Part shown: one piece after another, positions 10,072-54,663 of the stretch | Layout of the letters: each line of letters begins with the position of its first letter | How positions within the stretch are numbered: the stretch's first letter is position 1 | Made by a program: the position numbers and the translations under genes | The notes under the pieces: model-generated | Seen by the model: the letters and a program-made list of their open reading frames with translations, nothing else | The model's database searches: none | What the model was told of the DNA's origin: nothing | Assembly (NCBI GenBank): GCA_947593355.1 | Contig: CANQDO010000003.1 | Location: 1 to 58,143, forward strand | Source of the DNA: an uncultured Clostridia bacterium | GTDB lineage: Bacteria; Bacillota; Clostridia; TANB77; CAG-508 | DNA: 58,143 bases | Direction: 5' to 3'

Positions 10072-11580
10072 ATGAAAAAGAAAAAGGATAGTAAAGTAAA
10101 TGAACCAGCAATAAATAGTACAGAATTAATAGAGGCAATGAATGCATTAGAAAAAGAAAGTGGAATACAAAAGGAATATTTACTAGAATCAATAGAAACA
10201 GCATTAGTTACAGCGTATAAGAGAAATTTCGATTGTGAAGAAGAAAACGTAAAAGTTACAATGGACAAAGAAACAGGCGAAATACATATATATGCACAAA
10301 AAGAAGTTGTAAAAAAAGTAGAAAATGATAAATTGCAAATTAAATTAGATGAAGCTAAAAAAATAAATAAAAATTTAGAAATTGGTGATACAGCTGAAAT
10401 AGAATTAATACCAAGAAATTTTGGAAGAATTGCAGCAGGAACAGCAAAACAAGTAATTATTCAAAAAATAAGAGAAGCATCAAGAGAATTTTTGTACAAT
10501 GAATTCAATGAAAGAAAAGGTGAGATAGTTTCAGGAATAGTACAAAAAGCAGATGGTGGAGTAGTTATAGTAGATTTAGGAAGACTAGAAGGCGTAATGA
10601 CGGTAAAAGAACAAATACCAACAGAGCACTACCATGTAAATGATAAAATAAGAGCTTGTATAATAGATGTAGAAAGAGGTCTAAAAGGAAGTACTCAAGT
10701 AATGATTTCAAGAGCACATAATGATTTTGTAAGAAAACTATTTGAATTAGAAATACCAGAAATATATGAAGGATTAATTGAAATAAAAAGTGTTTCAAGA
10801 GATCCAGGAAATAGATGCAAAGTAGCAGTATACTCTCAAAATCCAAATATAGACCCAGTAGGTTCATGTGTAGGTCAAAAAGGAATACGTATTCAAAATA
10901 TTATAAATGAATTAAATGGAGAAAAAATAGATGTAATAGAATGGAATGAAAACCCAGCAACATTTATATCATCAGCATTATTACCAGCACAAGTTATGGC
11001 AGTAGATGTAAAGGAAGATGAACATTTTGCGCAAGTAATAGTTCCAGATAATCAATTATCTTTAGCTATAGGAAAAGCAGGACAAAATGCAAGATTAGCG
11101 GCAAAGCTTACAAATTGGAAAATAGATATTAAGAGTGAAAGTCAAATAAGACAAGTAATAGCAGAAATGCAAAATGCTGAAGCTACAAATCATGAAGAAG
11201 AGAGCAATACAGAAGTAAATGAAGCACAAGCAATAGAAGAAGCTGAAAAATTAGTTCAAGAGGTAGACATAGAAGAGAAAACAAGCAAGAAGTCAACTAA
11301 GAAAGCTAAAGAAGAAACAGAAGAAAAACCTAAAAAGGGAGCAAAAAAAGCTGCTAAAAAGGATGAAGAAGTAGAAGAAAAGCCTAAAAAAGCTACAAAG
11401 AAAGTTAGCAAAAAAGATGAAGAAGTAGAAGAAAAGCCTAAAAAAGCTACAAAGAAAGTTGCTAAAAAAGATGAAGAAGCAGAAGAAAAGCCTAAAAAGG
11501 CAACGAAGAAATCTAGCAAAAAAGATGAAGAAGTAGAAGAAAAACCAAAAAAAGTAGCAAAGAAAACTACAAAAAAGTAA
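10072..11580 (+). CDS. nusA: Transcription factor NusA with Lys/Glu-rich repetitive C-terminal tail
   Basis: FGRIAAGTAKQVI, DPVGSCVG, LSLAIGKAGQNARLAAKLT. Confidence 0.97.
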   Translation: MKKKKDSKVNEPAINSTELIEAMNALEKESGIQKEYLLESIETALVTAYKRNFDCEEENVKVTMDKETGEIHIYAQKEVVKKVENDKLQIKLDEAKKINKNLEIGDTAEIELIPRNFGRIAAGTAKQVIIQKIREASREFLYNEFNERKGEIVSGIVQKADGGVVIVDLGRLEGVMTVKEQIPTEHYHVNDKIRACIIDVERGLKGSTQVMISRAHNDFVRKLFELEIPEIYEGLIEIKSVSRDPGNRCKVAVYSQNPNIDPVGSCVGQKGIRIQNIINELNGEKIDVIEWNENPATFISSALLPAQVMAVDVKEDEHFAQVIVPDNQLSLAIGKAGQNARLAAKLTNWKIDIKSESQIRQVIAEMQNAEATNHEEESNTEVNEAQAIEEAEKLVQEVDIEEKTSKKSTKKAKEETEEKPKKGAKKAAKKDEEVEEKPKKATKKVSKKDEEVEEKPKKATKKVAKKDEEAEEKPKKATKKSSKKDEEVEEKPKKVAKKTTKK

Positions 11581-12315: not shown

Positions 12316-15301
12316 GATAAAAATACATGAAATAGCAAAGGAAACAAACTTAACCAGTAAAGAAGTAATAGAAAAAGCACAAGAAATGGGATATGATATT
12401 AAAAACCATTTAAGTGGTGTGTCTGAAAAAGAGGCAAAAGAATTAAAGAAAGTCCTTTTGGGAGGCAAAATGGAAGAAAACAAAGTAAAGGGTAAGGCAG
12501 AAGCCAAAAAAACAGAAAAGAAATCTGCGCCTGTTATTATAAGAAGAGAAGTTATAATATCAGATGATAAAACAGAAAGCGAAAAAGAAAGAGAAGCAAG
12601 AAGAGAAGAACAAAAAAATAAACAAGTTGGATTCGTAGAAAGAAATAAAAATGCGGATTATAATATTGTGTATAGAAATAAGCCTACAAAACCACTTACA
12701 ATAAGTGAATTATTAGGTATAGGTAAAAAAGAAGAAAAGAAAGAAACTCCAAAAGTAGAAACTAAAGTAGAAGAGAAAAAAGAAGAAGTTTTAGCTAAAC
12801 AAGAGGAAAAGAAAGAAATTAAAGTAGAAAATTTAGATGAAAAACAAAAAGAAATGTCTAATAAAAATCAACAACCAACAGAAGTAAATACACAAAATAA
12901 AGATAAAAATAATTTTCAAAATAAAGAAAATAACAACCAAAATAGAGATAGAAACTTTCAAAGCAAAGAAAATAATAGAGATAGGAATTTTCAAAACAAG
13001 AACAATAATTTCCAAAATAGAGATAGAAGTATGCAAAATAAAAATAATAATTTCCAAAATAGAGATAAAAATATGCAAAATAATAGAAATAATAACTTTC
13101 AAAATAAAGATGCAAAAAATAATTTCCAAAATAGGAATAATTTCCAAGGGCGAGATAATTATAAAAATGGGCAAAATAATCATAATAATTACGGAAAAAG
13201 GCCACTTGATGAAAGAGGAATTGATAGAAATATAAAAGATATAATGGCAATGGATATGCCGGAAAAAGAAAATCAAAGGGATTACAATAGTAAAGCTATA
13301 GATAAAGCTAAGAGCGAGAGATATGAAGAAAAAACAAGAAAAGTTGCCAAAAATAAAAGAGGTGGAAGATTTAACGAAGACTTTGATGATGAAAAATTAA
13401 AGGATTTAAAACAAGTAGACCGCCTATCAAATATGTTTGAAGACCAAGAAGGTGGAATGTTAGATTATTATGATTTAACAACAGCAAGAGGAAAGAAAAA
13501 TAAAAAGAAAGTAAACAAAGATGAGAAAGAAAGGACACAAAAAATATTCAAGTTAACAGAAATTACAATACCTTCATCTATTACTGTAAAAGATTTAGCA
13601 ACAGAACTTAAGAAAACTTCTGGAGAAGTTATAAAAAAATTATTAGATTACGGAATAATGGCAACAATAAATAACGAAATAGATTTTGATACAGCATTTT
13701 TAGTAGCAGGTGAATTTGGAGTAACTGCAAACAAGAAGGAAGAAGTAAAAGAAGAAGATATTCTATTTGACGATTCAGAAGACAAGGCAGAAGATTTAGA
13801 GGTAAGGCCACCAGTTGTAGTAGTTATGGGACACGTTGACCATGGTAAAACATCACTTCTAGATGCTATAAGAAAAACTAATGTTATAGAAGGAGAAGCA
13901 GGTGGAATTACGCAGGCTATTGGTGCGTATAAAGTTGAAGTAAATGGAAGAGAAATTACTTTCTTAGATACACCAGGTCATGAAGCATTTACAAGTATGC
14001 GTGCAAGAGGTGCTCAAATTACAGATATAGCAATATTAGTTGTAGCAGCAAATGATGGAGTAATGCCTCAAACAATTGAAGCTATAAACCATGCCAAAGC
14101 TGCCGATATACCTATTATAGTTGCAATAAATAAAATAGATTTACCAGATGCAAATATAGATAAAGTAAAACAAGAATTAATGAATTATGAATTAGTTCCT
14201 GAAGAATGGGGCGGAAACACAATATATGTACCAATTTCTGCAAAGAAAAATATTAATATAGATGAATTGCTTGAAATGGTACTATTACAAGCAGATGTAC
14301 TAGAATTAAAAGCAAACCCTCACAAACAAGCAAAAGGAGCAGTTATAGAGGCAAGGCTTGATAAAGCAAGAGGTCCAATAGCTACAGTTCTTGTACAAAG
14401 AGGAACACTAGATACAGGAGATACAATAGTAGTTGGATCTTCAATTGGTAGAATTAGAGCAATGAAAAATGATAAAGGTCAAAAGGTTAAAAAAGCAGGA
14501 CCATCAACTCCAGTTGAAATATTAGGATTAACAGAAGTTCCAGAAGCAGGAGATACTTTCTATGAAGTAAAAGATGAAAAAATGGCAAAACACTTAATAG
14601 AAAGAAGAAAACGTCAACAAAGAGAAAAATCAATAAATGATGTTCAAAAAGTTACATTAGATAACTTATTTGACCAAATGGAAAAAGGAAACTTAAAACA
14701 ATTAAATATTATAGTAAAAGCAGATGTTCAAGGTTCAAGCGAAGCATTAAAACAATCATTAGAAAAACTATCTGATGACGAAGTAAAAGTTAAAGTAATA
14801 CATTCTGCAACAGGAGCTGTTACAGAGTCTGACCTAAACTTAGCAAAAGTTGCAAATGCAATCATTATAGCATTTAATGTAAGACCAGTGGCAACAGCAA
14901 AAGAAGTAGCAGAAAAGGAAAATATTGAAATAAAACAATATTCAGTAATTTACCAAGTAATAGATGATGTAAAAGCTGCAATGAAGGGTATGTTAGATCC
15001 AGTATACGAAGAAAAAGTAATAGGAAATGTAGAAGTAAGACAAGTGTTTAAAGTATCAAATGTAGGAACCATTGCTGGTGCTTATGTATTAGAAGGTAAA
15101 ATAGAAAGAAATGCAGGAGTAAGAGTAATACGTGAAGGTGTTGTTATACATGAAGGAAAACTTATATCTTTAAAACGTTTCAAAGATGACGTAAAAGAAG
15201 TAGCAAAGGGCTATGAATGTGGTATGCAAATAGAAAATTACAATGATATAAAAGAAGGAGACATTATAGAAGTTTATGTTATGGAGGAAATAAAGAGGTA
15301 A
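12308..15301 (+). CDS. infB: Translation initiation factor IF-2 (probable TTG start at 12308)
   Basis: [32 protein letters not shown]; Asn/Gln-rich repeats in the N-terminal region. Confidence 0.97.
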
Positions 15302-15329
15302 ACTATTAGGGACGGGGTTAAATAGTTTA
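15299..15329 (+). repeat. Single REP unit overlapping the infB stop codon
   Basis: Exact consensus 31-mer starting at the TAA. Confidence 0.95.
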
Positions 15330-18250: not shown

Positions 18251-18445
18251 TATTAATTTTCCCTGCGTGGTGCGTGTAGACTGAAATTTTATTACCAACA
18301 AATTTTATAAGGGAGTCTGCCTTTGGATGTGGCGTGTATGCTTACTATGTAGTAAGAAACCCAGGAGCATTCAACAAGACACCCACCTGTGCAAACAGGT
18401 ATTAAAAATTTCTTCATCTTACGGCTAAAGTGGGGATTTAATATA
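18251..18445 (+). ncRNA. ssrS: 6S RNA (approximate ends)
   Basis: GC-richer non-coding ~190 nt with closing stem (TTCCCTGCG / GTGGGGA), GGGAGTCTG and ACCCACCTG...CAGGT segments typical of Firmicute 6S; own promoter and terminator. Confidence 0.75.
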
Positions 18446-18489: not shown

Positions 18490-18830
18490 TAAACTAATAG
18501 GGACGGGGTTAAATAGTTTAGCACAATTTATCTTTTTAGTTAAACTATAGGGGACGGGGTTAAATAGTTTAGCCAATTTATTTTATATTTCAAAACAATA
18601 ATATTATATTTTTCGAAGTGACTCGTGGGGACCTTTTTAGAAAATGTTATGAGCGGTAAGCGAATTACATTTTCTTAAATGGGGCAACGTAGAAAAATAT
18701 AATATTATTGTTTTGAAAATAGTATAGATACTTTTTGGCTAAACTATTTAACCCCGTCCCCTATAGTTTAACGGTAATTTCAAAATTACTCTAGTGTGCT
18801 AAACTATTTAACCCCGTCCCTATTAGTTTA
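18490..18830. repeat. Four-unit nested REP palindrome (18490-18520+, 18541-18571+, 18740-18770-, 18800-18830-) with a second type of long-hairpin core (18589-18717)
   Basis: Outer pair TAAACTAATAG variant, inner pair TAAACTATAGG variant. Confidence 0.95.
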
Positions 18831-25306: not shown

Positions 25307-25337
25307 TAAACTATTTAACCCCGTCCCTAATAGTTTA
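25307..25337 (-). repeat. Single REP unit just upstream of the dnaK RBS
   Basis: Exact reverse complement of the consensus. Confidence 0.95.
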
Positions 25338-28863: not shown

Positions 28864-29135
28864 ACTATTAAACTATTAGGGACGGGGTTAAATAGTTTAG
28901 TAAATTAATTACTTTATTTCAAAACATAGATATATTATTTATTTAGTAACTCTTAAACTGCATAATAGCTTGTAAAAATTTTATTTTAAGTAAAACAAGT
29001 TTTACAAAATAAAATTTTTACAAGCTATAATTTGTTGCTACCCACAAAATGTTACTAAATAAATAATATATCTATGTTTTGTAAGTATTTTAATATATTT
29101 TTACTAAACTATTTAACCCCGTCCCTAATAGTTTA
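28861..29135. repeat. Two-unit REP palindrome (28869-28899+, 29105-29135-) preceded by an 8-bp partial duplication, enclosing the long hairpin 28917-29084
   Basis: Starts at the dnaJ TAA; core nearly identical to 9249-9417. Confidence 0.95.
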
Positions 29136-32433: not shown

Positions 32434-32667
32434 ATGAAATTAATTAATATTGGGTTTGGTAATATTGTTTCAACAGACAGAGTTATAGCTATAGTAAGTC
32501 CAGAATCTGCACCAATAAAAAGACTAATACAAGACGCAAGAGATAGTGGAAATGCAATAGACGCGACATGTGGAAGAAAAACAAGGGCAGTATTAATAAT
32601 GGATTCAGGTCACATTATTTTGTCTGCTGTACAACCAGAAACCGTGGCAGGAAGATTAAATGAGTAA
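32434..32667 (+). CDS. remA: RemA (DUF370) regulator
   Basis: [41 protein letters not shown]. Confidence 0.95.
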
Positions 32668-32695
32668 ACTATTAGGGACGGGGTTAAATAGTTTA
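32665..32695 (+). repeat. Single REP unit overlapping the remA stop codon
   Basis: Exact consensus. Confidence 0.95.
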
Positions 32696-37363: not shown

Positions 37364-38359
37364 ATGAAAATATTTATGAGAATTTTATTTATGGGAACAC
37401 CAGATTTTGCAGAAGAGTCTTTAAGGGAAATTTGTCAAACTGAAAATGAGGTTGTTGGAGTTGTTACAAATCCAGATAAACCCAAGGGTAGGGGAATGAA
37501 AATGGTAGCTTCGCCTGTAAAAGAATATGCCCTTTCTCAAAATTTGAAGGTGTATCAACCAGAAAAGGTTAGAAATAATACAGAATTTATAAATGAAATA
37601 AATGCTTTAAATCCAGATTTAATATGCGTTGTAGCTTATGGGAAAATTCTTCCAAAAGAAATATTAGACATTCCTAAATTAGGATGTGTAAATGTGCATG
37701 CGTCTCTTTTACCTAAATATAGAGGGGCAGCGCCAATTCAATGGGCAGTGTTAAATGGAGATAAAGAAACAGGTGTAACCACAATGTACATGGATGTGGG
37801 AATGGATACAGGAGATATGATTTTAACTGAAAAGGTGCAAATTGGAGAAGATGAAACCACTGGTGAACTTTGGGATAGACTTGCAAAAATTGGAGGTAAA
37901 CTTTTAGTAGAAACAATAGATCAAATAGAAAGGAAAACAGCACCAAGAATAAAGCAAGGTGAAGATTATACAATGGCACCAATGTTAGAAAAAGAAATGG
38001 CAAAAATAGAATGGAATAATATGCCAATGGCTAAAATAAAAAATTTAGTAAGAGGCTTAAATCCAATAATGGGTGCATATACATTTTTGAATGATAAAAA
38101 AATTAAGTTCTGGAAAGTGCAAACTATGCAAAATGAAAAGTTAGTTGAATTGTTCCCTGATTTAGCAGAATATTTTTATAAAGTACAGGACATAACACCT
38201 GGCACAGTAATGTTTTCAGATAGCAAAAAAGGCTTATTTGTTAAAGCAATGGATGGAGTTATAGAAGTAAAAGAAATACAAGGTGAAAACGCAAAAAGGA
38301 TGAATATATCAGATTTCTTAAGGGGTACACCAATAAATGTAGGCGAAATATTTAACTAA
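37364..38359 (+). CDS. fmt: Methionyl-tRNA formyltransferase
   Basis: FMGTPDFA, NVHASLLPKYRGAAPIQ, GMDTGD. Confidence 0.97.
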   Translation: MKIFMRILFMGTPDFAEESLREICQTENEVVGVVTNPDKPKGRGMKMVASPVKEYALSQNLKVYQPEKVRNNTEFINEINALNPDLICVVAYGKILPKEILDIPKLGCVNVHASLLPKYRGAAPIQWAVLNGDKETGVTTMYMDVGMDTGDMILTEKVQIGEDETTGELWDRLAKIGGKLLVETIDQIERKTAPRIKQGEDYTMAPMLEKEMAKIEWNNMPMAKIKNLVRGLNPIMGAYTFLNDKKIKFWKVQTMQNEKLVELFPDLAEYFYKVQDITPGTVMFSDSKKGLFVKAMDGVIEVKEIQGENAKRMNISDFLRGTPINVGEIFN

Positions 38360-38571
38360 ACTATTAGGGACGAGGTTAAATAGTTTAGCAAATTTATTTT
38401 TTTAATTAAACTATTAGGGACGTTGTTAAATAGTTTAGTGGATAATAATGGTTTTATTGTAATATATTAGTGTGTTTTCACTAAACTATTTAACAACGTC
38501 CCTAATAGTTTAATGGTAATTTTCAGTTACGCTAACGTGCTAAACTATTTAACCCCGTCCCTAATAGTTTA
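38357..38571. repeat. Four-unit nested REP palindrome (38357-38387+, 38407-38437+, 38482-38512-, 38541-38571-); inverted homolog of 6152-6364
   Basis: Spacers are near reverse complements of those at 6152-6364; starts at the fmt TAA. Confidence 0.95.
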
Positions 38572-43115: not shown

Positions 43116-44798
43116 GTGATGGAAGATATAGAAATTGCAAGAAGTGTAAAGCTAGATAATATAGTGGATGTAGCCAAAAAATTAGAAATAGATGAAGAAG
43201 AAATAGAGCAATATGGAAAATATAAAGCTAAAATTTCTTTGAATACCTATGAAAAATTAAAAAATAATAAAAATGGAAAACTAATATTAGTTACAGCAAT
43301 TAATCCAACTCCATTAGGAGAAGGAAAAACAACAATGGCAATAGGCTTAGCAGATGGAATTAGAAAGGTTGGAAAAAAATCAGTTCTTGCATTAAGAGAG
43401 CCATCACTTGGACCAGTATTTGGAATAAAAGGTGGAGCAACAGGTGGAGGTTATTCACAAGTAGCTCCTATGGAAGATATAAATCTTCATTTTACAGGGG
43501 ATATTCATGCAATTACGTCAGCAAATAATTTATTATCTGCTATGATAGATAATCATATATATAATGGAAATGAATTAGGGTTTGAAAAAGTGACATGGAA
43601 GAGATGTGTAGACTTAAATGATAGGCAATTAAGAGTTGTAGATACGGGGTTATCAGAAGAAAAAAATATTGTACCTAGAAGGGATGGATTCGATATATCT
43701 GTTGCCTCAGAAGTAATGGCAATTTTTTGCTTAGCAAAAGATTTAAAAGATTTAAAAAGAAGACTAGGCAATATAATAGTAGGCTACAATAAAGAAGGAA
43801 ACCCAATAAAAGCATCAGACTTAAAAGCAGAAGGAGCAATGGCAGTGTTATTAAAAGATGCAATCAATCCAAATTTAGTACAAACATTAGAGCACACACC
43901 TGCAATTATACATGGTGGACCATTTGCAAATATTGCACATGGATGTAATAGTGTTATAGCGACAAAATTAGCATTAAAATTAGGAGATTATGTTGTAACA
44001 GAAGCGGGATTTGGAGCAGATTTAGGAGCAGAAAAGTTCTTAAATATAAAAACAAGAGTATTAGGAGAAGTTCCAAGTGTAGTGGTATTAGTTGCAACAA
44101 TTAAAGCATTAAAATATCACGGAGGAATGCCAAAAGAAGATATAAAAACAGAAAGCATAGAATTCTTAAATAGAGGAATAGAAAATTTATTAAAACATGT
44201 AGATAATATAAAAAATAAATTCGGTTTAAATGTAATAGTTGCAATAAACAAGTACACACATGACACACAAAAAGAAATTGAATGCTTACAACAAAAATTA
44301 TTAGAAAAAGGAGTAATGCTAAGTTTAGTAGAAAGTTGGGAAAAAGGCGGAGAAGGTGCCGTTGATTTAGCTAATAAAGTAATACAACTTTGTGAAAATA
44401 GTAAAAATCAAAATGATTTTAAATATATATATAACTTAGAAGATAGTATAAAAGAAAAAATAGAAAAAGTTGCAAAAAGTATATATGGAGCAACAGAAGT
44501 GGAATACTCAGAAGAAGCAATAGAGCAAATAAAACAAATAGAAGAAACAGAAAACGGAATATACAAAAAAGTTCCAATTTGCATAGCAAAAACACAATAC
44601 TCATTATCAGATGATGCTAAAAACCTTGAATGTAAAGAACCTTTTGCAATACATGTAAAAGAAGTAAAATTGCGAGCAGGTGCTGAATTCATAGTAGTCC
44701 TAACAGGAAAAATAATGACAATGCCAGGACTTCCAAAGAAACCAGCAGCAGAACAAATAGATATAGATGAAAAGGGAAATATCGTAGGAATATTTTAA
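43116..44798 (+). CDS. fhs: Formate-tetrahydrofolate ligase
   Basis: TPLGEGKTT, REPSLGP, GGATGGGYSQV, HGGPFANIAHG, TEAGFGADLG. Confidence 0.97.
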   Translation: MMEDIEIARSVKLDNIVDVAKKLEIDEEEIEQYGKYKAKISLNTYEKLKNNKNGKLILVTAINPTPLGEGKTTMAIGLADGIRKVGKKSVLALREPSLGPVFGIKGGATGGGYSQVAPMEDINLHFTGDIHAITSANNLLSAMIDNHIYNGNELGFEKVTWKRCVDLNDRQLRVVDTGLSEEKNIVPRRDGFDISVASEVMAIFCLAKDLKDLKRRLGNIIVGYNKEGNPIKASDLKAEGAMAVLLKDAINPNLVQTLEHTPAIIHGGPFANIAHGCNSVIATKLALKLGDYVVTEAGFGADLGAEKFLNIKTRVLGEVPSVVVLVATIKALKYHGGMPKEDIKTESIEFLNRGIENLLKHVDNIKNKFGLNVIVAINKYTHDTQKEIECLQQKLLEKGVMLSLVESWEKGGEGAVDLANKVIQLCENSKNQNDFKYIYNLEDSIKEKIEKVAKSIYGATEVEYSEEAIEQIKQIEETENGIYKKVPICIAKTQYSLSDDAKNLECKEPFAIHVKEVKLRAGAEFIVVLTGKIMTMPGLPKKPAAEQIDIDEKGNIVGIF

Positions 44799-45938
44799 AC
44801 TATTAAACTATTAGGGACGTGGTTAAATAGTTTAATGGATTTCTAATAAATCAGAATGTTTATTAATTGTTATATATAAAAAATAGTTTTTAGAATATAT
44901 AAATATGTATAAATAATATGTATAAAATAAATTTTTGATATATAAATAATTAAAATAAACAAAAAGAGGAAAAGATGTAAAATATCTTAAAAGGGCCTAA
45001 AATAAATTTTTATTCTTAAATGATTAAAAATCGTTTAAAAAGCATGAGAAATAAGTATAAGTAATATTTATATTTATTGCTCATTTAAAAGAAAGGAAAG
45101 TGATTTTTATGCCTAGAATAGCAAGAAAAGATTATGATACATCTTTTTTTCATGTAATAATTCATGCAGAAAAAGATGAGTATATATTCAAGGAAAGAAG
45201 GTATAAGCAAAAATATTTAGACTTAATTAATAAAACAAAAGAAGAAATTGATATACAAATAATTGCATATTGCATTATGGATAATCATGTACATATGCTA
45301 GTATATGCCAAAGAAATAGAAAATTTATCTAAATTTATGCAAAGAGTAAATACATCATATGCCATATATTATAATAGAGTATGCAAAAATCAGATTGGAC
45401 ACGTGTATAAAGATAGATATTTGAGTGAGCCAGTAAATGGTAGGAGATATTTTTTTAAATGTATAAATTACATACATCAAAATCCTGTAAAGGCATGTAT
45501 AGTATTGAAATGTGAAGACTATGAATATTCTTCTGCTAATGATTATATAAATAATAGTGGTTGTGCAAAATCTGAAATATTAAGTACAATATTCGAAAAT
45601 GAAAATTATGTAGATTTAATAAATCAGTATAATAAAAACATTAATTTATTTATGGATATAAATCAAAACATAAATGAGAAAATGGATAGTTTAATAAACG
45701 AATTTATGGATGAAAATTCATGTAGTATAATTGATGTTTTGAAAAATTATAGAATTTTTTCAAATCTTATAAAATTTGTAAAAGATGGGGGAAGTATCAC
45801 ATATAATGATATTATAAAAAAATTCAATATTCCAAGAAATAGATTAGTTAATATATTAAAAAGTTGATTATATGCATCTCTGTATATAATAAAAGATTAT
45901 ATACAGCTAAACTATTTAACCCCGTCCCTAATAGTTTA
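44796..45938. mobile_element. REP-bracketed RAYT locus: REP+ 44804-44834, transposase, REP- 45908-45938
   Basis: Inverted REP pair flanks the HUH transposase and its very AT-rich leader; begins at the fhs TAA with an 8-bp partial duplication. Confidence 0.85.
45109..45867 (+). CDS. REP-associated tyrosine transposase-like HUH/Y1 protein (start MPRIAR; ORF track starts 45100)
   Basis: MPR..R, FHV, AYCIMDNHVHML (HUH), M..VN..YA.YYN, GHV..DRY.S, YIHQNPVKA (catalytic Tyr), YSS; C-terminal extension. Confidence 0.9.
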   Translation: MPRIARKDYDTSFFHVIIHAEKDEYIFKERRYKQKYLDLINKTKEEIDIQIIAYCIMDNHVHMLVYAKEIENLSKFMQRVNTSYAIYYNRVCKNQIGHVYKDRYLSEPVNGRRYFFKCINYIHQNPVKACIVLKCEDYEYSSANDYINNSGCAKSEILSTIFENENYVDLINQYNKNINLFMDINQNINEKMDSLINEFMDENSCSIIDVLKNYRIFSNLIKFVKDGGSITYNDIIKKFNIPRNRLVNILKS

Positions 45939-45979: not shown

Positions 45980-46036
45980 TTGACTTTTTATACAAATGGG
46001 TATAAATTATTAGCAGTCTTGAATAAAGACTGCTAA
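45980..46036 (+). promoter_or_regulatory. groESL promoter with CIRCE variant (46010-46036)
   Basis: TTGACT -35; TTAGCAGTC-N9-GACTGCTAA perfect inverted repeat. Confidence 0.88.
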
Positions 46037-46437: not shown

Positions 46438-46468
46438 TAAACTATTTAACCCCGTCCCTAATAGTTTA
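46438..46468 (-). repeat. Single REP unit abutting the groEL Shine-Dalgarno
   Basis: Reverse-complement consensus; its terminal A is the first base of AGGAGG. Confidence 0.95.
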
Positions 46469-48113: not shown

Positions 48114-48116
<3 letters not shown>

Positions 48117-48330
48117 ACTAATAGGGACGGGGTTAAATAGTTTAGCACATTAGTGTGTAACTTTGAAATTACCGTTAAACTTTTGGGGACGGGGTTAAAT
48201 AGTTTAGTGAATTAATTGCTTTATTGCAAAATAATTAATATACTCTCACTAAACTATTTAACCCCGTCCCCAAAAGTTTAACTAAAAAATAAATTGTGCT
48301 AAACTATTTAACCCCGTCCCTATTAGTTTA
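48114..48330. repeat. Four-unit nested REP palindrome (48114-48144+, 48176-48206+, 48250-48280-, 48300-48330-)
   Basis: Outer pair TAAACTAATAG variant, inner pair TAAACTTTTGG variant; starts at the groEL TAA. Confidence 0.95.
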
Positions 48331-48412: not shown

Positions 48413-49222
48413 ATGAAAAGAGAAAACCGGATTTATACAGAATTAGAGAAATCGTATGATGCAGAAAGAATAGACTTCTTTAATAAGGAATTCTTTCGGA
48501 GAGACATGAAAATTTTATTAGATTTTTCAATGTTTTATGTTAAGAAGTTTATGAGTATAGTATATTCAAATGTATTTTTTGGAAATACTTTATACGTAAC
48601 ACAGCAAGCACTTAAAACAGCAACTAAAATGGCAAATGGCAAAATTTATGCTTCAGAATCAGATATTCGAAATTGTAAGTTATTTCTGAATTTCTTGAAA
48701 GGCGATAAAAGGAAGAAAATAGAAATAGTTAAATTAGAAGGGCAAGATGTTGTAGAATATGTAAAATCTAATGAACATATGATTTTGTATGTTTCTAGTG
48801 CTAATTTTTTTTATGAAGCGCAATATAGAGGAGCAAGAGTTAAGTTATATGACAGACATTGTGGAGTGTATAACGAAAGGAGCATAAGATACGATACTCT
48901 TGGAATGTTATTCTTTGATGAAGAAAACAACATGTATATTCCAAGTGATGGTTCAAAACCCGGTACAACTAAAAGAGTTTTCAGTTCATGGTTTAAGGAA
49001 AAATATGGCGAAAGAATAAAAGTTAGTATTGGAGATTATGTAGTAATTAGAAAGGAACTGCCAGAAATAATAACAATCGTAATTTATAGGATAGTGAATT
49101 ATCATTCTAGAAATAATGCTATAAAATTACTCTGGACGGATATTAACAAAAGTGACGCTAAAAGCTCATATGCTAATTATCCTGAACTTCAAACTTTAAT
49201 AGAAATGAATTTATATAATTGA
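48413..49222 (+). CDS. Hypothetical protein (probable ATG 48413)
   Basis: AGGAGA RBS; TTGCAA-17bp-TAAAAT promoter at 48332-48360; no confident family. Confidence 0.65.
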   Translation: MKRENRIYTELEKSYDAERIDFFNKEFFRRDMKILLDFSMFYVKKFMSIVYSNVFFGNTLYVTQQALKTATKMANGKIYASESDIRNCKLFLNFLKGDKRKKIEIVKLEGQDVVEYVKSNEHMILYVSSANFFYEAQYRGARVKLYDRHCGVYNERSIRYDTLGMLFFDEENNMYIPSDGSKPGTTKRVFSSWFKEKYGERIKVSIGDYVVIRKELPEIITIVIYRIVNYHSRNNAIKLLWTDINKSDAKSSYANYPELQTLIEMNLYN

Positions 49223-49320
49223 ATATTTTTACTAATTATAAAGAGGGTGTCCTAAATTGAACTATACCCCAAAAAGTAGAGTTTAGAAAAAAGGGTGCCT
49301 AAAAAAAGAACAGAGTAATT

Positions 49321-50494: not shown

Positions 50495-50823
50495 ATTATT
50501 ATCACCATAATGATTATATCATAAAAAGAGACACAGAAAAACATTTCTATGTCTCTTTGGGCACCCTTTTTTCTAAACTCTACTTTTTGGGGTATAGTTC
50601 ATTTTTAGGCACCCTTTTTTCTAAACTCTACTTTTTGGGGTATAGTTCATTTTAGGACACCCTCTTTTATAATTAACAAAATTTGAAAATAAAAATAAAA
50701 TTATCTATTGTGTATAACTTGAAAATTTAGTATAATAGTACAATAGAGAAAGCAATTTTGAATAAAATAATTGTTTACTACTATATAAGCCTTGTAATAA
50801 AACTAGAAAGGAATGAAAATTAC

Positions 50824-53295: not shown

Positions 53296-53298
<3 letters not shown>
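52267..53298 (+). CDS. queA: SAM:tRNA ribosyltransferase-isomerase
   Basis: [52 protein letters not shown]. Confidence 0.97.

Positions 53299-54663
<1,365 letters not shown>

What the first reader, a model, noticed from the sequence alone, without database searches (positions are those of the whole stretch)
44796..45938. Candidate clostridial REP-RAYT system: a HUH transposase bracketed by a 31-bp hairpin found 30 times in 58 kb
Seen: the unit TAAACTATT-AGGGACGGGGTTA-AATAGTTTA (9-bp stem, G-rich loop) occurs 30 times at 12 intergenic loci. One inverted pair (44804-44834, 45908-45938) encloses an intact Y1 transposase with the HUH motif (NHVH) and YIHQNP. Established: REP-flanked RAYT/TnpA-REP genes that disperse REPs/REPINs are best described in Proteobacteria, where REPs have a 5' GTAG/GGAG tetranucleotide and a GC-rich stem. 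Here the stem is AT-rich, there is no GTAG, and the conserved part is the GGGAC loop. Inference: a distinct repeat-transposase partnership in a Firmicute, with this gene as the mobiliser.
Basis: partly seen in the sequence, partly recalled or inferred. Interest (0 to 1): 0.9.

Follow-up and report, generated by a model that had tools for sequence, protein, structure and literature searches.

The report
Hairpin repeats with their tyrosine transposase
A small gut Clostridia genome carries about a hundred copies of a short palindromic DNA element together with the single transposase-like gene that most likely spreads or maintains them, a Gram-positive counterpart of the REP/RAYT systems known from Proteobacteria.

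Summary
The 31-mer occurs 30 times in the window (0 expected) and 222 times in the 1.52-Mb genome. It is nearly always arranged as '+-' or '++--' palindromic, extragenic elements without target duplication.

The enclosed gene (45109-45867) is a single-copy Y1 HUH protein. Its core resembles E. coli TnpAREP (Z 16.0). Its C-terminal domain resembles DnaA domain IV (Z 6-7).

Evidence for a gene-repeat partnership:
- Of 42 genomes of the genus, only the three with an ortholog of 85% identity or more carry the 31-mer (222, 165, 237 copies), and it flanks the gene in all three.
- The loop word GGGACGG is at background (1-5 copies) in 8 of 8 genomes without a homolog and at 22-282 copies in 32 of 34 genomes with one.
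- In 60 of 68 homolog loci with significant flanking inverted repeats, those repeats hold GGGAC, often in the loop of a stem whose sequence differs from locus to locus.

This is not a new kind. It fits the TIRYT/TIRtron class (Di Nocera 2013; TnpAY1 subclass 2.1), whose inverted repeats share GGGGWSAS.

Three points add to that class: the loop placement of the motif, the REPIN-like abundance, and insertion directly after TAA stop codons. Mobilisation itself is inferred, not shown.

The parts
45109..45867 (+). Single-copy Y1 HUH tyrosine transposase-like gene (RAYT/TIRYT type), 252 aa from the ATG. The ORF is open from the GTG at 45100.
   Evidence: Pfam Y1_Tnp E 1.8e-13. NCBIfam REP_Tyr_transpos 66.6 bits, below its cut-off of 80; IS200 model 25 bits. 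The model matches 4er8 with Z 16.0 over residues 1-186 and DnaA domain IV with Z 6.1-6.7 over 187-252. The own genome holds only 2 Y1 genes.
44804..44834 (+). Left terminal hairpin unit of the gene-bearing element (1 mismatch to the consensus).
   Evidence: The same unit flanks the orthologs in G048 and G049.
45908..45938 (-). Right terminal hairpin unit, inverted (0 mismatches).
44796..44803 (+). 8-nt partial copy of the unit's 5' arm. Its TAA is the stop codon of the upstream formate-tetrahydrofolate ligase gene.
   Evidence: In G043 and G002 the same gene ends on the TAA of the unit itself.
46438..46468 (-). Third, solitary unit between groES and groEL. The same layout is present in G043.
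6152..6364 (.). '++--' palindromic element, 213 bp.
   Evidence: In G049 the same site holds a '+-' element of about 120 bp.
9201..9468 (.). '+-' palindromic element, 268 bp.
   Evidence: Against G049 the units are 62 of 62 identical and the interior 75% identical.
15299..15329 (+). Solitary unit. Its TAA is the stop codon of a 1003-codon ORF.
18490..18830 (.). '++--' element, 341 bp, just downstream of the 6S RNA gene.
25307..25337 (-). Solitary unit upstream of a dnaK-like ORF. It is decayed in G048.
28869..29135 (.). '+-' element, 267 bp, 93% identical to the one at 9201 over its interior.
32665..32695 (+). Solitary unit. Its TAA is the stop codon of a 91-codon ORF.
38357..38571 (.). '++--' element, 215 bp. 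Its left TAA is the stop codon of a 335-codon ORF.
48114..48330 (.). '++--' element, 217 bp. Its first TAA is the groEL stop codon.
   Evidence: G048 has a 68-bp '+-' element at this site.
53296..53517 (.). '++--' element, 222 bp. Its left TAA is the stop codon of a 351-codon ORF.
5539..5575 (+). Copy of a second repeat family (two GGGAC words around a short palindrome). This family flanks the paralogous Y1 gene on contig C7 of the same genome.
   Evidence: It is present at the same site in G048.

Best explanation
The gene at 45109-45867 is a chromosomally fixed, single-copy Y1 HUH enzyme of the RAYT family, of the TIRYT / TnpAY1 subclass 2.1 type. It has a TnpAREP-like catalytic core and a C-terminal helix-turn-helix domain resembling DnaA domain IV. 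The 31-nt units are its cognate ends. Two inverted units bound the gene, and about a hundred gene-less palindromic elements of 68-340 bp carry the same ends; these resemble REPINs.

Proposed mechanism, by analogy with IS200/IS605 TnpA and E. coli TnpAREP. On single-stranded DNA each unit folds into a hairpin. The protein reads the conserved loop word GGGACGG, while the stem serves only as structure and is free to change. The protein cuts and rejoins DNA at the foot of the hairpin through the tyrosine of YIHQNP. Elements are placed directly 3' of a TAA without target duplication, which is why many sit exactly on stop codons.

Shown here: the anatomy, the co-occurrence of gene and repeat, the covarying stems between loci, the absence of duplications, the TAA position, and the stronger conservation of units than of element interiors.

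Inferred: binding, loop reading, the cleavage position, and that the protein moves the elements rather than only maintaining them.
For: (1) Specificity within the genus. The 31-mer is found in G000 (222 copies), G048 (165) and G049 (237), with one near-match in G043, out of 42 genomes. Only these three hold an ortholog (100, 93 and 85% identity). The next best are 54% (G043) and 48%. The orthologs in G048 and G049 are flanked by the same unit.

(2) Second pair in the same genome. The 39%-identical paralog on contig C7 is flanked by a different inverted repeat, which has about 30 copies. Its ortholog in G048 carries that repeat too.

(3) Motif against gene across 42 genomes. GGGACGG occurs 1-5 times in 8 of 8 genomes without a homolog (reversed-pattern control 4-20). 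It occurs 22-282 times in 32 of 34 genomes with one. Spearman correlation of homolog matches against motif count is 0.71, against 0.17 for the control.

(4) Generality. Of 92 loci, 68 have significant flanking inverted repeats, and 60 of those 68 hold GGGAC. A perfect stem of 6 bp or more encloses the motif in 38 of 81 motif instances, against 2.6% when the 3' partners are permuted between loci.

(5) Architecture. The 101 clusters comprise 59 '+-', 21 '++--', 1 '+-+-' and 20 single units; '-+' never occurs. Whole elements fold as long hairpins, z -18 to -20. No target duplication was found: for example GT..GT 0 times against GT..AC 8 times. 94 of 101 clusters are extragenic.

(6) Constraint. 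Where the architecture is the same, units are 94-100% identical between species and element interiors about 75-80%.

(7) Protein. 4er8 (TnpAREP bound to a REP hairpin) is the best structural match (Foldseek E 4.2e-6; Z 16.0, rmsd 3.0, 155 aligned). HUH, the tyrosine and NP are invariant in 38 homologs.

(8) Vertical, single-copy behaviour. The order fhs - gene - groES - groEL is kept in G048, G049, G043 and G002.

(9) TAA. The unit's first three bases are the stop codon of an ORF of 80 codons or more at 50 of 182 outer ends; ORFs run in through the other two frames at 8 and 18 ends. In the window, at 4 of 5 such sites with orthologs in the element-free G043 and G002, the ortholog ends at the same codon on its own TAA (8 of 8 comparisons).

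(10) The flanking 16-mer is the most abundant 16-mer of the genome, at 180 copies.
Against: - No movement was seen. At every window site that could be scored, G048 and G049 also carry a unit or element, so the family predates these three species.
- No compensatory change occurs within the family. Position 8 is T to A in 64 of 225 units without a change at position 24, and the flanking positions 0:32 and -1:33 vary independently.
- The hairpin is weak, -3.7 kcal/mol.
- The covarying stems would also fit a protein dimer reading an inverted repeat in duplex DNA.
- The gene falls below NCBIfam's RAYT cut-off (66.6 against 80 bits), and there is no GTAG.
- A gene does not always come with a family. 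G007 (1 motif copy) and G023 (4) have a homolog without enrichment, and G002, G012, G014, G055 and G056 are near their controls.
- The three repeat-bearing genomes are probably one clade, so their agreement is one evolutionary event.
- The DnaA-like match has Z of only 6-7, a range the tool warns may reflect a common helical arrangement.
- TAA adjacency is not seen for the second family.
- My flank script mis-framed L004, L007 and L012, so their rows are unreliable. One search shows inverted repeats with the motif at all three.
- The G-handle loci and the named genome-contig loci overlap (L002 and L018 are the same place), so the 92 loci are not independent.
Confidence: 0.72

Rival explanations
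1. The elements are no longer mobile. The units are kept because the host uses them, for example as transcript ends, mRNA stabilisers or protein-binding sites at gene ends. The Y1 protein has a maintenance or unrelated single-strand-DNA role, such as homogenising or resolving hairpins, rather than transposing them.
For: All window sites are shared by three species. Units are 94-100% conserved against 75-80% for element interiors. 50 of 182 ends sit exactly on stop codons, and elements are somewhat more frequent between convergent genes (14 sites) than divergent genes (6), against a background of 107 and 117. The gene sits at a fixed locus in species down to 48% protein identity.
Against: About 100 near-identical elements must have spread at some time. 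The architecture at one site differs between species ('++--' against '+-'), so turnover continues. The catalytic HUH, Tyr and NP residues are invariant in 38 homologs, which argues for a kept cleavage activity. This reading also largely overlaps with the best explanation.
Confidence: 0.17
2. The repeats are ordinary MITEs moved by an unrelated (DDE) transposase. The Y1 gene merely lies between two of them by chance or because the site is a hotspot.
For: Inverted terminal units with discrete size classes look like MITEs. There are three units around this locus, including one beyond groES.
Against: No target duplication was found at 79 elements. The same bracket is present at the orthologs in G048 and G049, and a diverged version in G043. 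A different repeat brackets the paralog. 60 of 68 homolog loci with significant inverted repeats carry the GGGAC word. The motif is at background in all 8 genomes of the genus without a homolog.
Confidence: 0.04
3. The 1.1-kb unit 44804-45938 is an autonomous IS200/IS605-type insertion sequence that copies itself, and the short elements are its deletion derivatives.
For: It is a Y1_Tnp domain protein between hairpin ends, without duplication, inserted after a short word.
Against: There is one copy per genome, plus a 39% paralog with other ends. The genomic position is the same in five species. The tyrosine motif is Y---NP rather than the Y---Q of IS200 (motif rule from PMC6006769, Table 1). 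The IS200 model scores 25 bits against a cut-off of 55. The ends are inverted rather than in the same orientation.
Confidence: 0.04

Closest known systems
TIRYT / TIRtron (Di Nocera, De Gregorio, Rocco 2013, PMC3733652), largely equal to TnpAY1 subclass 2.1 of Quentin et al. 2018 (PMC6006769) and RAYT Group 1 of Bertels et al. 2017 (PMC5581495)
   Same: - A RAYT-like Y1 gene is flanked by inverted repeats instead of GTAG REPs.
- The repeats share a G-rich word. The published consensus is GGGGWSAS. Here most units read AGGGACGG, variant units read GGGGACGG, and relatives read GGGGACAC.
- The repeats form dispersed families arranged as dimers and clusters.
- The protein has NHVH, about 240-250 aa, SS after the core, and a C-terminal HTH likened to Bac_DnaA_C.
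- Proteobacterial plasmid homologs at 29-34% identity carry GGGGTCAG or GGGGACAG in their inverted repeats.
   Different: - Quentin et al. report no REP-like structures for subclass 2.1, and Bertels et al. report only about 12 copies of the flanking 16-mer for Group 1. Here the flanking 16-mer has 180 copies in 1.5 Mb.
- The motif sits in the loop of a hairpin whose stem covaries between loci. The passages I read do not say this; Figure 9 and the supplements could not be seen.
- The tyrosine motif is YIHQNP, not YIELNP or Y[IV]HLNP.
- The host is a low-GC gut Clostridia lineage.
RAYT (TnpAREP) with REP/REPIN, E. coli and Pseudomonas type (subclasses 2.2 and 2.5; PDB 4er8; PMC8266576)
   Same: - A single-copy, vertically kept Y1 gene is bracketed by inverted copies of an extragenic palindrome that is dispersed in about 100-200 copies, mostly as inverted doublets forming long hairpins.
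- Each paralog has its own repeat family.
- 4er8 is the best structural match.
   Different: - There is no 5' GTAG/GTGG word and the stem is AT-rich.
- The conserved word is in a 13-nt loop.
- There is an extra C-terminal HTH domain.
- The score is below the NCBIfam RAYT cut-off.
- The residues aligned to E. coli W94/Q95 are Y/K.
IS200/IS605 (IS608, ISDra2) TnpA
   Same: - The Y1 HUH fold.
- Hairpin ends and no target duplication.
- Insertion directly 3' of a short word; TAA is inferred here.
   Different: - It is not multicopy and has no tnpB.
- The motif is Y---NP rather than Y---Q.
- The ends are inverted.
- The gene stays at one chromosomal locus across species.
Rolling-circle Rep origins (stem-loop with a conserved loop word and a variable stem)
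   Same: An HUH enzyme is paired with a hairpin in which the loop sequence is conserved while the stem varies. This is recalled general knowledge, not tested here.
   Different: About 100 chromosomal sites, no replicon, and the repeat boundary lies at the foot of the stem rather than in the loop.

Membership tests
Y1 HUH transposase superfamily (Pfam PF01797) | HUH metal-binding motif and a single catalytic tyrosine on a C-terminal helix | tested here: met
   NHVH and YIHQNP are present. H60, H62, Y121, N125 and P126 are invariant in 38 homologs. Pfam scores 51 bits against a cut-off of 23.
Y1 HUH transposase superfamily (Pfam PF01797) | Fold of IS200/TnpAREP | tested here: met
   The model has pLDDT 84.3. 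4er8 gives Z 16.0, rmsd 3.0, 155 of 165 residues aligned; 2vhg gives Z 9.5. Foldseek hits 1-30 are all Y1 transposases.
RAYT / TnpAREP (class 2 of Quentin 2018) | Y---NP tyrosine motif | tested here: met
   YIHQNP. The rule comes from PMC6006769, section 15.
RAYT / TnpAREP (class 2 of Quentin 2018) | Low copy number, with no near-identical copies in the genome | tested here: met
   The genome has 2 Y1 genes, 39% identical to each other. It is a 76-contig assembly, 96% complete.
RAYT / TnpAREP (class 2 of Quentin 2018) | Gene flanked by inverted copies of a palindrome that is dispersed in extragenic space | tested here: met
RAYT / TnpAREP (class 2 of Quentin 2018) | 5' GT[AG]G word at the foot of the hairpin | tested here: not met
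   The positions before the unit are R and Y only, and the unit starts with TAAACT.
RAYT / TnpAREP (class 2 of Quentin 2018) | NCBIfam NF047646 equivalog score | tested here: not met
   66.6 bits against a cut-off of 80.
TIRYT / TnpAY1 subclass 2.1 | HuH motif NHVH or NH[YF]H | tested here: met
   NHVH here; NHAH or NHVH in the homologs.
TIRYT / TnpAY1 subclass 2.1 | Y motif YIELNP or Y[IV]HLNP | tested here: inconclusive
   YIHQNP agrees at Y, I, H, N and P but has Q for L. That spelling is the one listed for subclass 2.6. No tree with named subclass members could be built.
TIRYT / TnpAY1 subclass 2.1 | SS motif after the core, and a distal C-terminal HTH (Bac_DnaA_C, HTH_23 or HTH_28 like) | tested here: inconclusive
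   YSS is conserved, with S141 invariant. Residues 187-252 match DnaA domain IV in four entries (Z 6.1-6.7, rmsd 1.9-2.7), but such Z values can arise by chance. Pfam gives only HTH_24 in 2 of 38 homologs and no Bac_DnaA_C hit. The C-terminal domain folded alone was poor, pLDDT 56.
TIRYT / TnpAY1 subclass 2.1 | Flanking inverted repeats with GGGGWSAS | tested here: inconclusive
   The consensus unit has AGGGACGG (6 of 8 positions) and variant units have GGGGACGG (7 of 8). Relatives have GGGGACAC (8 of 8). Distant plasmid homologs have GGGGTCAG or GGGGACAG.
IS200/IS605 | Y---Q motif, multicopy near-identical elements, ends in the same orientation, often with tnpB | tested here: not met
   tnpB was not searched for by family.
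MITE moved by a DDE transposase | Direct target-site duplication | tested here: not met
   79 elements were examined. Flanking dinucleotides behave as an extension of the inverted repeat (62 of 79 at 1 nt), not as direct repeats beyond palindromic words.

The most novel reading that the evidence does not exclude
Proteins of this class read their ends in a different way from all RAYTs and IS200 transposases studied so far. The specificity word (GGGACGG, extended to GGGGACGGTTCT in distant relatives) lies in the hairpin loop, the stem is a free structural scaffold, and a DnaA-domain-IV-like domain assists. This is closer to how rolling-circle Rep proteins read an origin. In this clade the elements are placed exactly behind TAA, so that they dock on stop codons. 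If so, Clostridia hold a widespread, unstudied REPIN-like system with its own recognition logic, contradicting the published view that subclass 2.1 has no REP partner.
Probability: 0.35. Interest if true: 0.7.

Novelty: new member of a known kind. Interest (0 to 1): 0.5.

Why it matters
REP/REPIN-RAYT systems are a textbook case of a domesticated transposase living with a population of non-autonomous elements. They have been worked out almost only in Proteobacteria. My searches found no paper that holds RAYT, REPIN and Firmicutes together, and only three papers that hold the word TIRYT.

This locus gives a clean Gram-positive example. It has one gene and about 100 elements in 1.5 Mb, with two cognate gene-repeat pairs in one genome. 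The genus contains natural controls: genomes with and without the gene, and with diverged pairs.

It shows that the largest and least understood RAYT group (subclass 2.1 / Group 1), reported as not REP-associated, can carry a dense repeat population. It also suggests concrete substrates for a first biochemical test of that group: loop word, stem swaps, and the TAA junction.

For annotation it explains dozens of genes whose stop codon lies inside a repeat, and why assemblies of these gut genomes break at these sites.

Tried and rejected
- **CGTC-tagged REPs** (the reverse complement of GGGACG holds CGTC). Rejected: those have 8-9 bp stems, 4-5 nt loops, the tag at one end and no transposase partner (PMC3733652 passages).
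- **Extension of the stem by the flanking R/Y positions.** Rejected: positions 0:32 and -1:33 pair no more often than expected if independent (93 against 92.3, and 92 against 87.2).
- **Empty sites among the three repeat-bearing species.** None was found in the window's synteny, so boundaries had to be taken from the more distant G043 and G002.
- **TAA as a general target.** Not seen for the second repeat family.
- **Sequence match to solved structures.** Only E 0.22 to 4er8.
- **The C-terminal domain folded alone.** pLDDT 56.5, not used for a search.
- **Rfam.** No family lies on the repeats.
- **Plasmid collection.** No DNA match to a 280-nt element.
- **Sequencing runs.** No RNA holder was listed. 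All five runs are contigs from rabbit gut metagenomes of two studies, so expression and excision could not be examined. Contigs end inside the units. One joint (53347 to 53477, 18 other letters between) appears in X2 and X4. At 88% likeness it may come from a sister species in the same sample, so I draw nothing from it.
Supplements were not requested. Additional files 4-5 and Figure 9 of PMC3733652, and Table S1 of PMC6006769, may already show hairpin-type inverted repeats or Firmicute examples that I could not see.
- **A tree with named members of Quentin's subclasses** was not built, because no named sequences were at hand.

Full report
**1. The observation.**
The 31-mer TAAACTATTAGGGACGGGGTTAAATAGTTTA, with up to three mismatches, matches 30 times in the window; shuffled sequence gave none. 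Units at 44804-44834 (+) and 45908-45938 (-) bracket an ORF with NHVH and YIHQNP. The database homologue starts at the ATG at 45109 and has 252 aa. As single-stranded DNA the unit folds into a 9-bp stem with a 13-nt loop (-3.4 to -3.7 kcal/mol, z -3.6 to -5.2).

**2. Genome-wide anatomy.**
- The window is contig C3 of a 1.52-Mb, 76-contig, 27.9% GC assembly.
- It holds 222 units at up to 3 mismatches, 111 on each strand, and 226 at up to 4 mismatches.
- These form 101 clusters: 59 '+-', 21 '++--', one '+-+-' and 20 single units. Several singles lie at contig ends, and two are the pair around the gene. The order '-+' never occurs.
- Sizes fall into classes of 68-70, 104-143, 183, 223-274 and 341 bp.
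- Whole elements are long imperfect palindromes, z about -18 to -20.
- The conserved unit begins sharply at position 1.
- There is no direct target duplication. The two bases outside behave as a weak extension of the inverted repeat.
- 94 of 101 clusters are extragenic in a genome that is about 85% coding by a crude ORF call.
- The elements make up 1.05% of the genome, and the 16-mers of the unit are the most abundant 16-mers in it, at 180 copies.
- Within the family I found no compensatory change. Position 8 is A instead of T in 64 of 225 units, while its partner never changes.

**3. The protein.**
- Pfam Y1_Tnp scores E 1.8e-13.
- NCBIfam's RAYT model scores 66.6 bits, below its cut-off of 80. 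The IS200 model scores 25 bits.
- An AlphaFold model built on 38 homologs has pLDDT 84.3.
- Its best match is 4er8, E. coli TnpAREP bound to a REP hairpin: Foldseek E 4.2e-6; Z 16.0, rmsd 3.0, 155 residues, model residues 1-186.
- Residues 187-252 align to DnaA domain IV in four entries: 1l8q Z 6.7, 1j1v 6.3, 8btg 6.2, 3pvp 6.1. This is suggestive only, by the tool's own warning.
- HUH, Tyr, Asn-Pro and a Ser after the core are invariant in the 38 homologs.
- The own genome has only one other Y1 gene, on contig C7, 39% identical.

**4. Is the gene tied to the repeat?**
Four independent lines say yes.

(a) Among 42 genomes of the genus, the 31-mer family is present in G000, G048 and G049 only (222, 165 and 237 copies), with one near-match in G043. 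These three are the only genomes with an ortholog of 85% identity or more. The next best are 54% and 48%. In G048 and G049 the ortholog is bracketed by the same unit.

(b) The C7 paralog is bracketed by a different repeat, with two GGGAC words around a short palindrome. This repeat has about 30 copies, one of them in the window at 5539-5575. Its G048 ortholog carries the same repeat.

(c) The loop word GGGACGG is at or below the reversed-pattern control (1-5 copies) in all 8 genomes of the genus without a homolog. It is at 22-282 copies in 32 of the 34 genomes with one. The exceptions are G007 and G023, and several others are close to their control. Related genomes are not independent, so I give no weight to the p-values.

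(d) I examined 92 loci with homologs: 12 from G handles and 80 named Clostridia, Negativicutes and Bacilli records such as Sporomusa, Syntrophomonas, Desulforamulus, Alkaliphilus, Halobacillus, Mesobacillus and Dorea. Of these, 68 have flanking inverted repeats above shuffled controls, and 60 of the 68 contain GGGAC. The stems around the word differ from locus to locus yet stay complementary. A perfect stem of 6 bp or more encloses the word in 38 of 81 instances, against 2.6% when 3' partners are exchanged between loci. Three loci (L004, L007, L012) were mis-framed by my script and are wrongly counted among the failures; one search shows motif-bearing inverted repeats at all three. Some loci are duplicates of one place (L002 = L018).

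**5. History.**
- The order fhs - gene - groES - groEL is kept in G048, G049, G043 and G002. Over these species the protein falls to 54% and 48% identity, while the first 200 GroEL residues stay 91-93% identical.
- G043 even keeps the layout '+ gene - groES -' with a diverged unit.
- The gene therefore behaves like a resident, fast-evolving chromosomal gene, not like an insertion sequence.
- Every window site that could be scored is also occupied in G048 and G049.
- The architecture differs, however. The site at 48114 is '++--' of 217 bp in G000 and '+-' of 68 bp in G048. The sites at 6152, 38357 and 53296 show similar differences.
- Where the architecture is the same, units are 94-100% identical and interiors 75-80%.
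- The family is therefore old, still being remodelled at fixed sites, and its units are under constraint.

**6. Where the elements sit.**
At 50 of 182 outer ends the unit's first three bases, TAA, are the stop codon of an ORF of 80 codons or more. ORFs run in through the other two frames at only 8 and 18 ends. In the window this holds for six ends, groEL among them. For five of them orthologs exist in the element-free species G043 and G002. At four of the five sites the ortholog ends at the same codon on its own TAA, followed by unrelated sequence (8 of 8 comparisons). At the fifth site the orthologs run 7-13 residues further. The simplest reading is insertion directly 3' of a TAA with no duplication. 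IS200/IS605 elements likewise insert 3' of a short word; that rule comes from PMC8266576, discussion read. The second family does not show a strict TAA.

**7. Comparison with what is known.**
- Canonical REPs have a 5' GT[AG]G word and are partnered with subclasses 2.2, 2.4, 2.5, 2.7 and 2.8 (PMC6006769, sections 12 and 15).
- Di Nocera et al. described RAYT-like genes flanked by long inverted repeats sharing GGGGWSAS. Some are self-complementary and form moderately abundant families in dimers and clusters. They named these TIRYT/TIRtron (PMC3733652, passages).
- Quentin et al. placed 20 of 26 TIRYTs in subclass 2.1. That subclass has NHVH, a median length of 238 aa, an SS motif and a C-terminal HTH likened to Bac_DnaA_C. 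They state that no REP-like sequences were found for it.
- Bertels et al. found Group 1 also in Clostridia, with flanking 16-mers at only about 12 copies (PMC5581495, passages).
- The present system fits this class in protein features and in the repeat word. Distant proteobacterial plasmid homologs that I fetched carry GGGGTCAG or GGGGACAG in their inverted repeats.
- It is thus a new member of a known kind.
- Beyond the texts I could read, it adds four things: the loop position of the word with covarying stems, a repeat density typical of REPIN systems, the genus-wide gene-motif correlation, and the docking on TAA stop codons.
- No biochemical work on this class was found: three papers hold 'TIRYT', and the TnpAREP SELEX study covers Bertels' groups 2 and 3 only.

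**8. Mechanism and confidence.**
I hold the gene-repeat partnership as very likely, about 0.85-0.9. The mechanistic model has three parts: a single-strand hairpin read through its loop, cleavage at the stem foot next to TAA, and movement or maintenance of '+-' doublets. I hold that model as plausible, about 0.5. The main alternative for the stems is recognition of a duplex inverted repeat by a dimer. The main alternative for function is that the elements are now host-used and the protein only maintains them.

Noticed in passing
window 46010-46036: A perfect 11-bp inverted repeat with a 5-nt spacer lies upstream of groES. It resembles the CIRCE operator of HrcA; that name is recalled, not tested. 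The terminator scan flagged it on both strands, and the same palindrome is present in G043.
   Followed up: no
window 18257-18440 (+): A 6S RNA gene (Rfam RF00013, 107 bits). A 341-bp '++--' element begins 50 nt downstream of it.
   Followed up: no
window 687-855: This stretch is about 90% similar to the interior of the 268-bp elements at 9201 and 28869 (inverted repeats I2, I3 and I8). No 31-mer unit within 3 mismatches lies at its ends. It may be an element that lost its terminal units.
   Followed up: no
window 49198-49305 and 50602-50709: 108-nt inverted repeats, 81% complementary, enclose about 1.3 kb. Two 48-nt direct repeats lie at 50556-50651. These are unrelated to the 31-mer family and may mark another mobile or regulatory structure.
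   Followed up: no
window 11257-11580 and 12894-13130: In-frame tandem repeats with a 54-nt period (5-6 copies), and AT-rich 21-45-nt repeats, lie inside or near the long ORF that ends at 15301.
   Followed up: no
own genome C9:16675-16790, C9:19125-19240, C67:11150-11265: A third, related palindromic repeat has four GGGGACGG words per copy. No Y1 gene of its own was found in this assembly.
   Followed up: partly
own genome C1, C11, C17 (e.g. inner units of '++--' elements): Variant units read GGGACGGTGCT or GGGACGGTACT in the loop. They exceed 4 mismatches and so are not in the count of 226 units. The true number of units is therefore somewhat higher.
   Followed up: no
window 53347-53477: Contigs of runs X2 and X4 join these two places with 18 other letters between. 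This is a shorter form of the '++--' element, like the 112-bp form in G048. It may come from a sister species in the same rabbit-gut samples.
   Followed up: partly
window 58082-58143 (+): A tRNA gene cut off by the end of the window.
   Followed up: no
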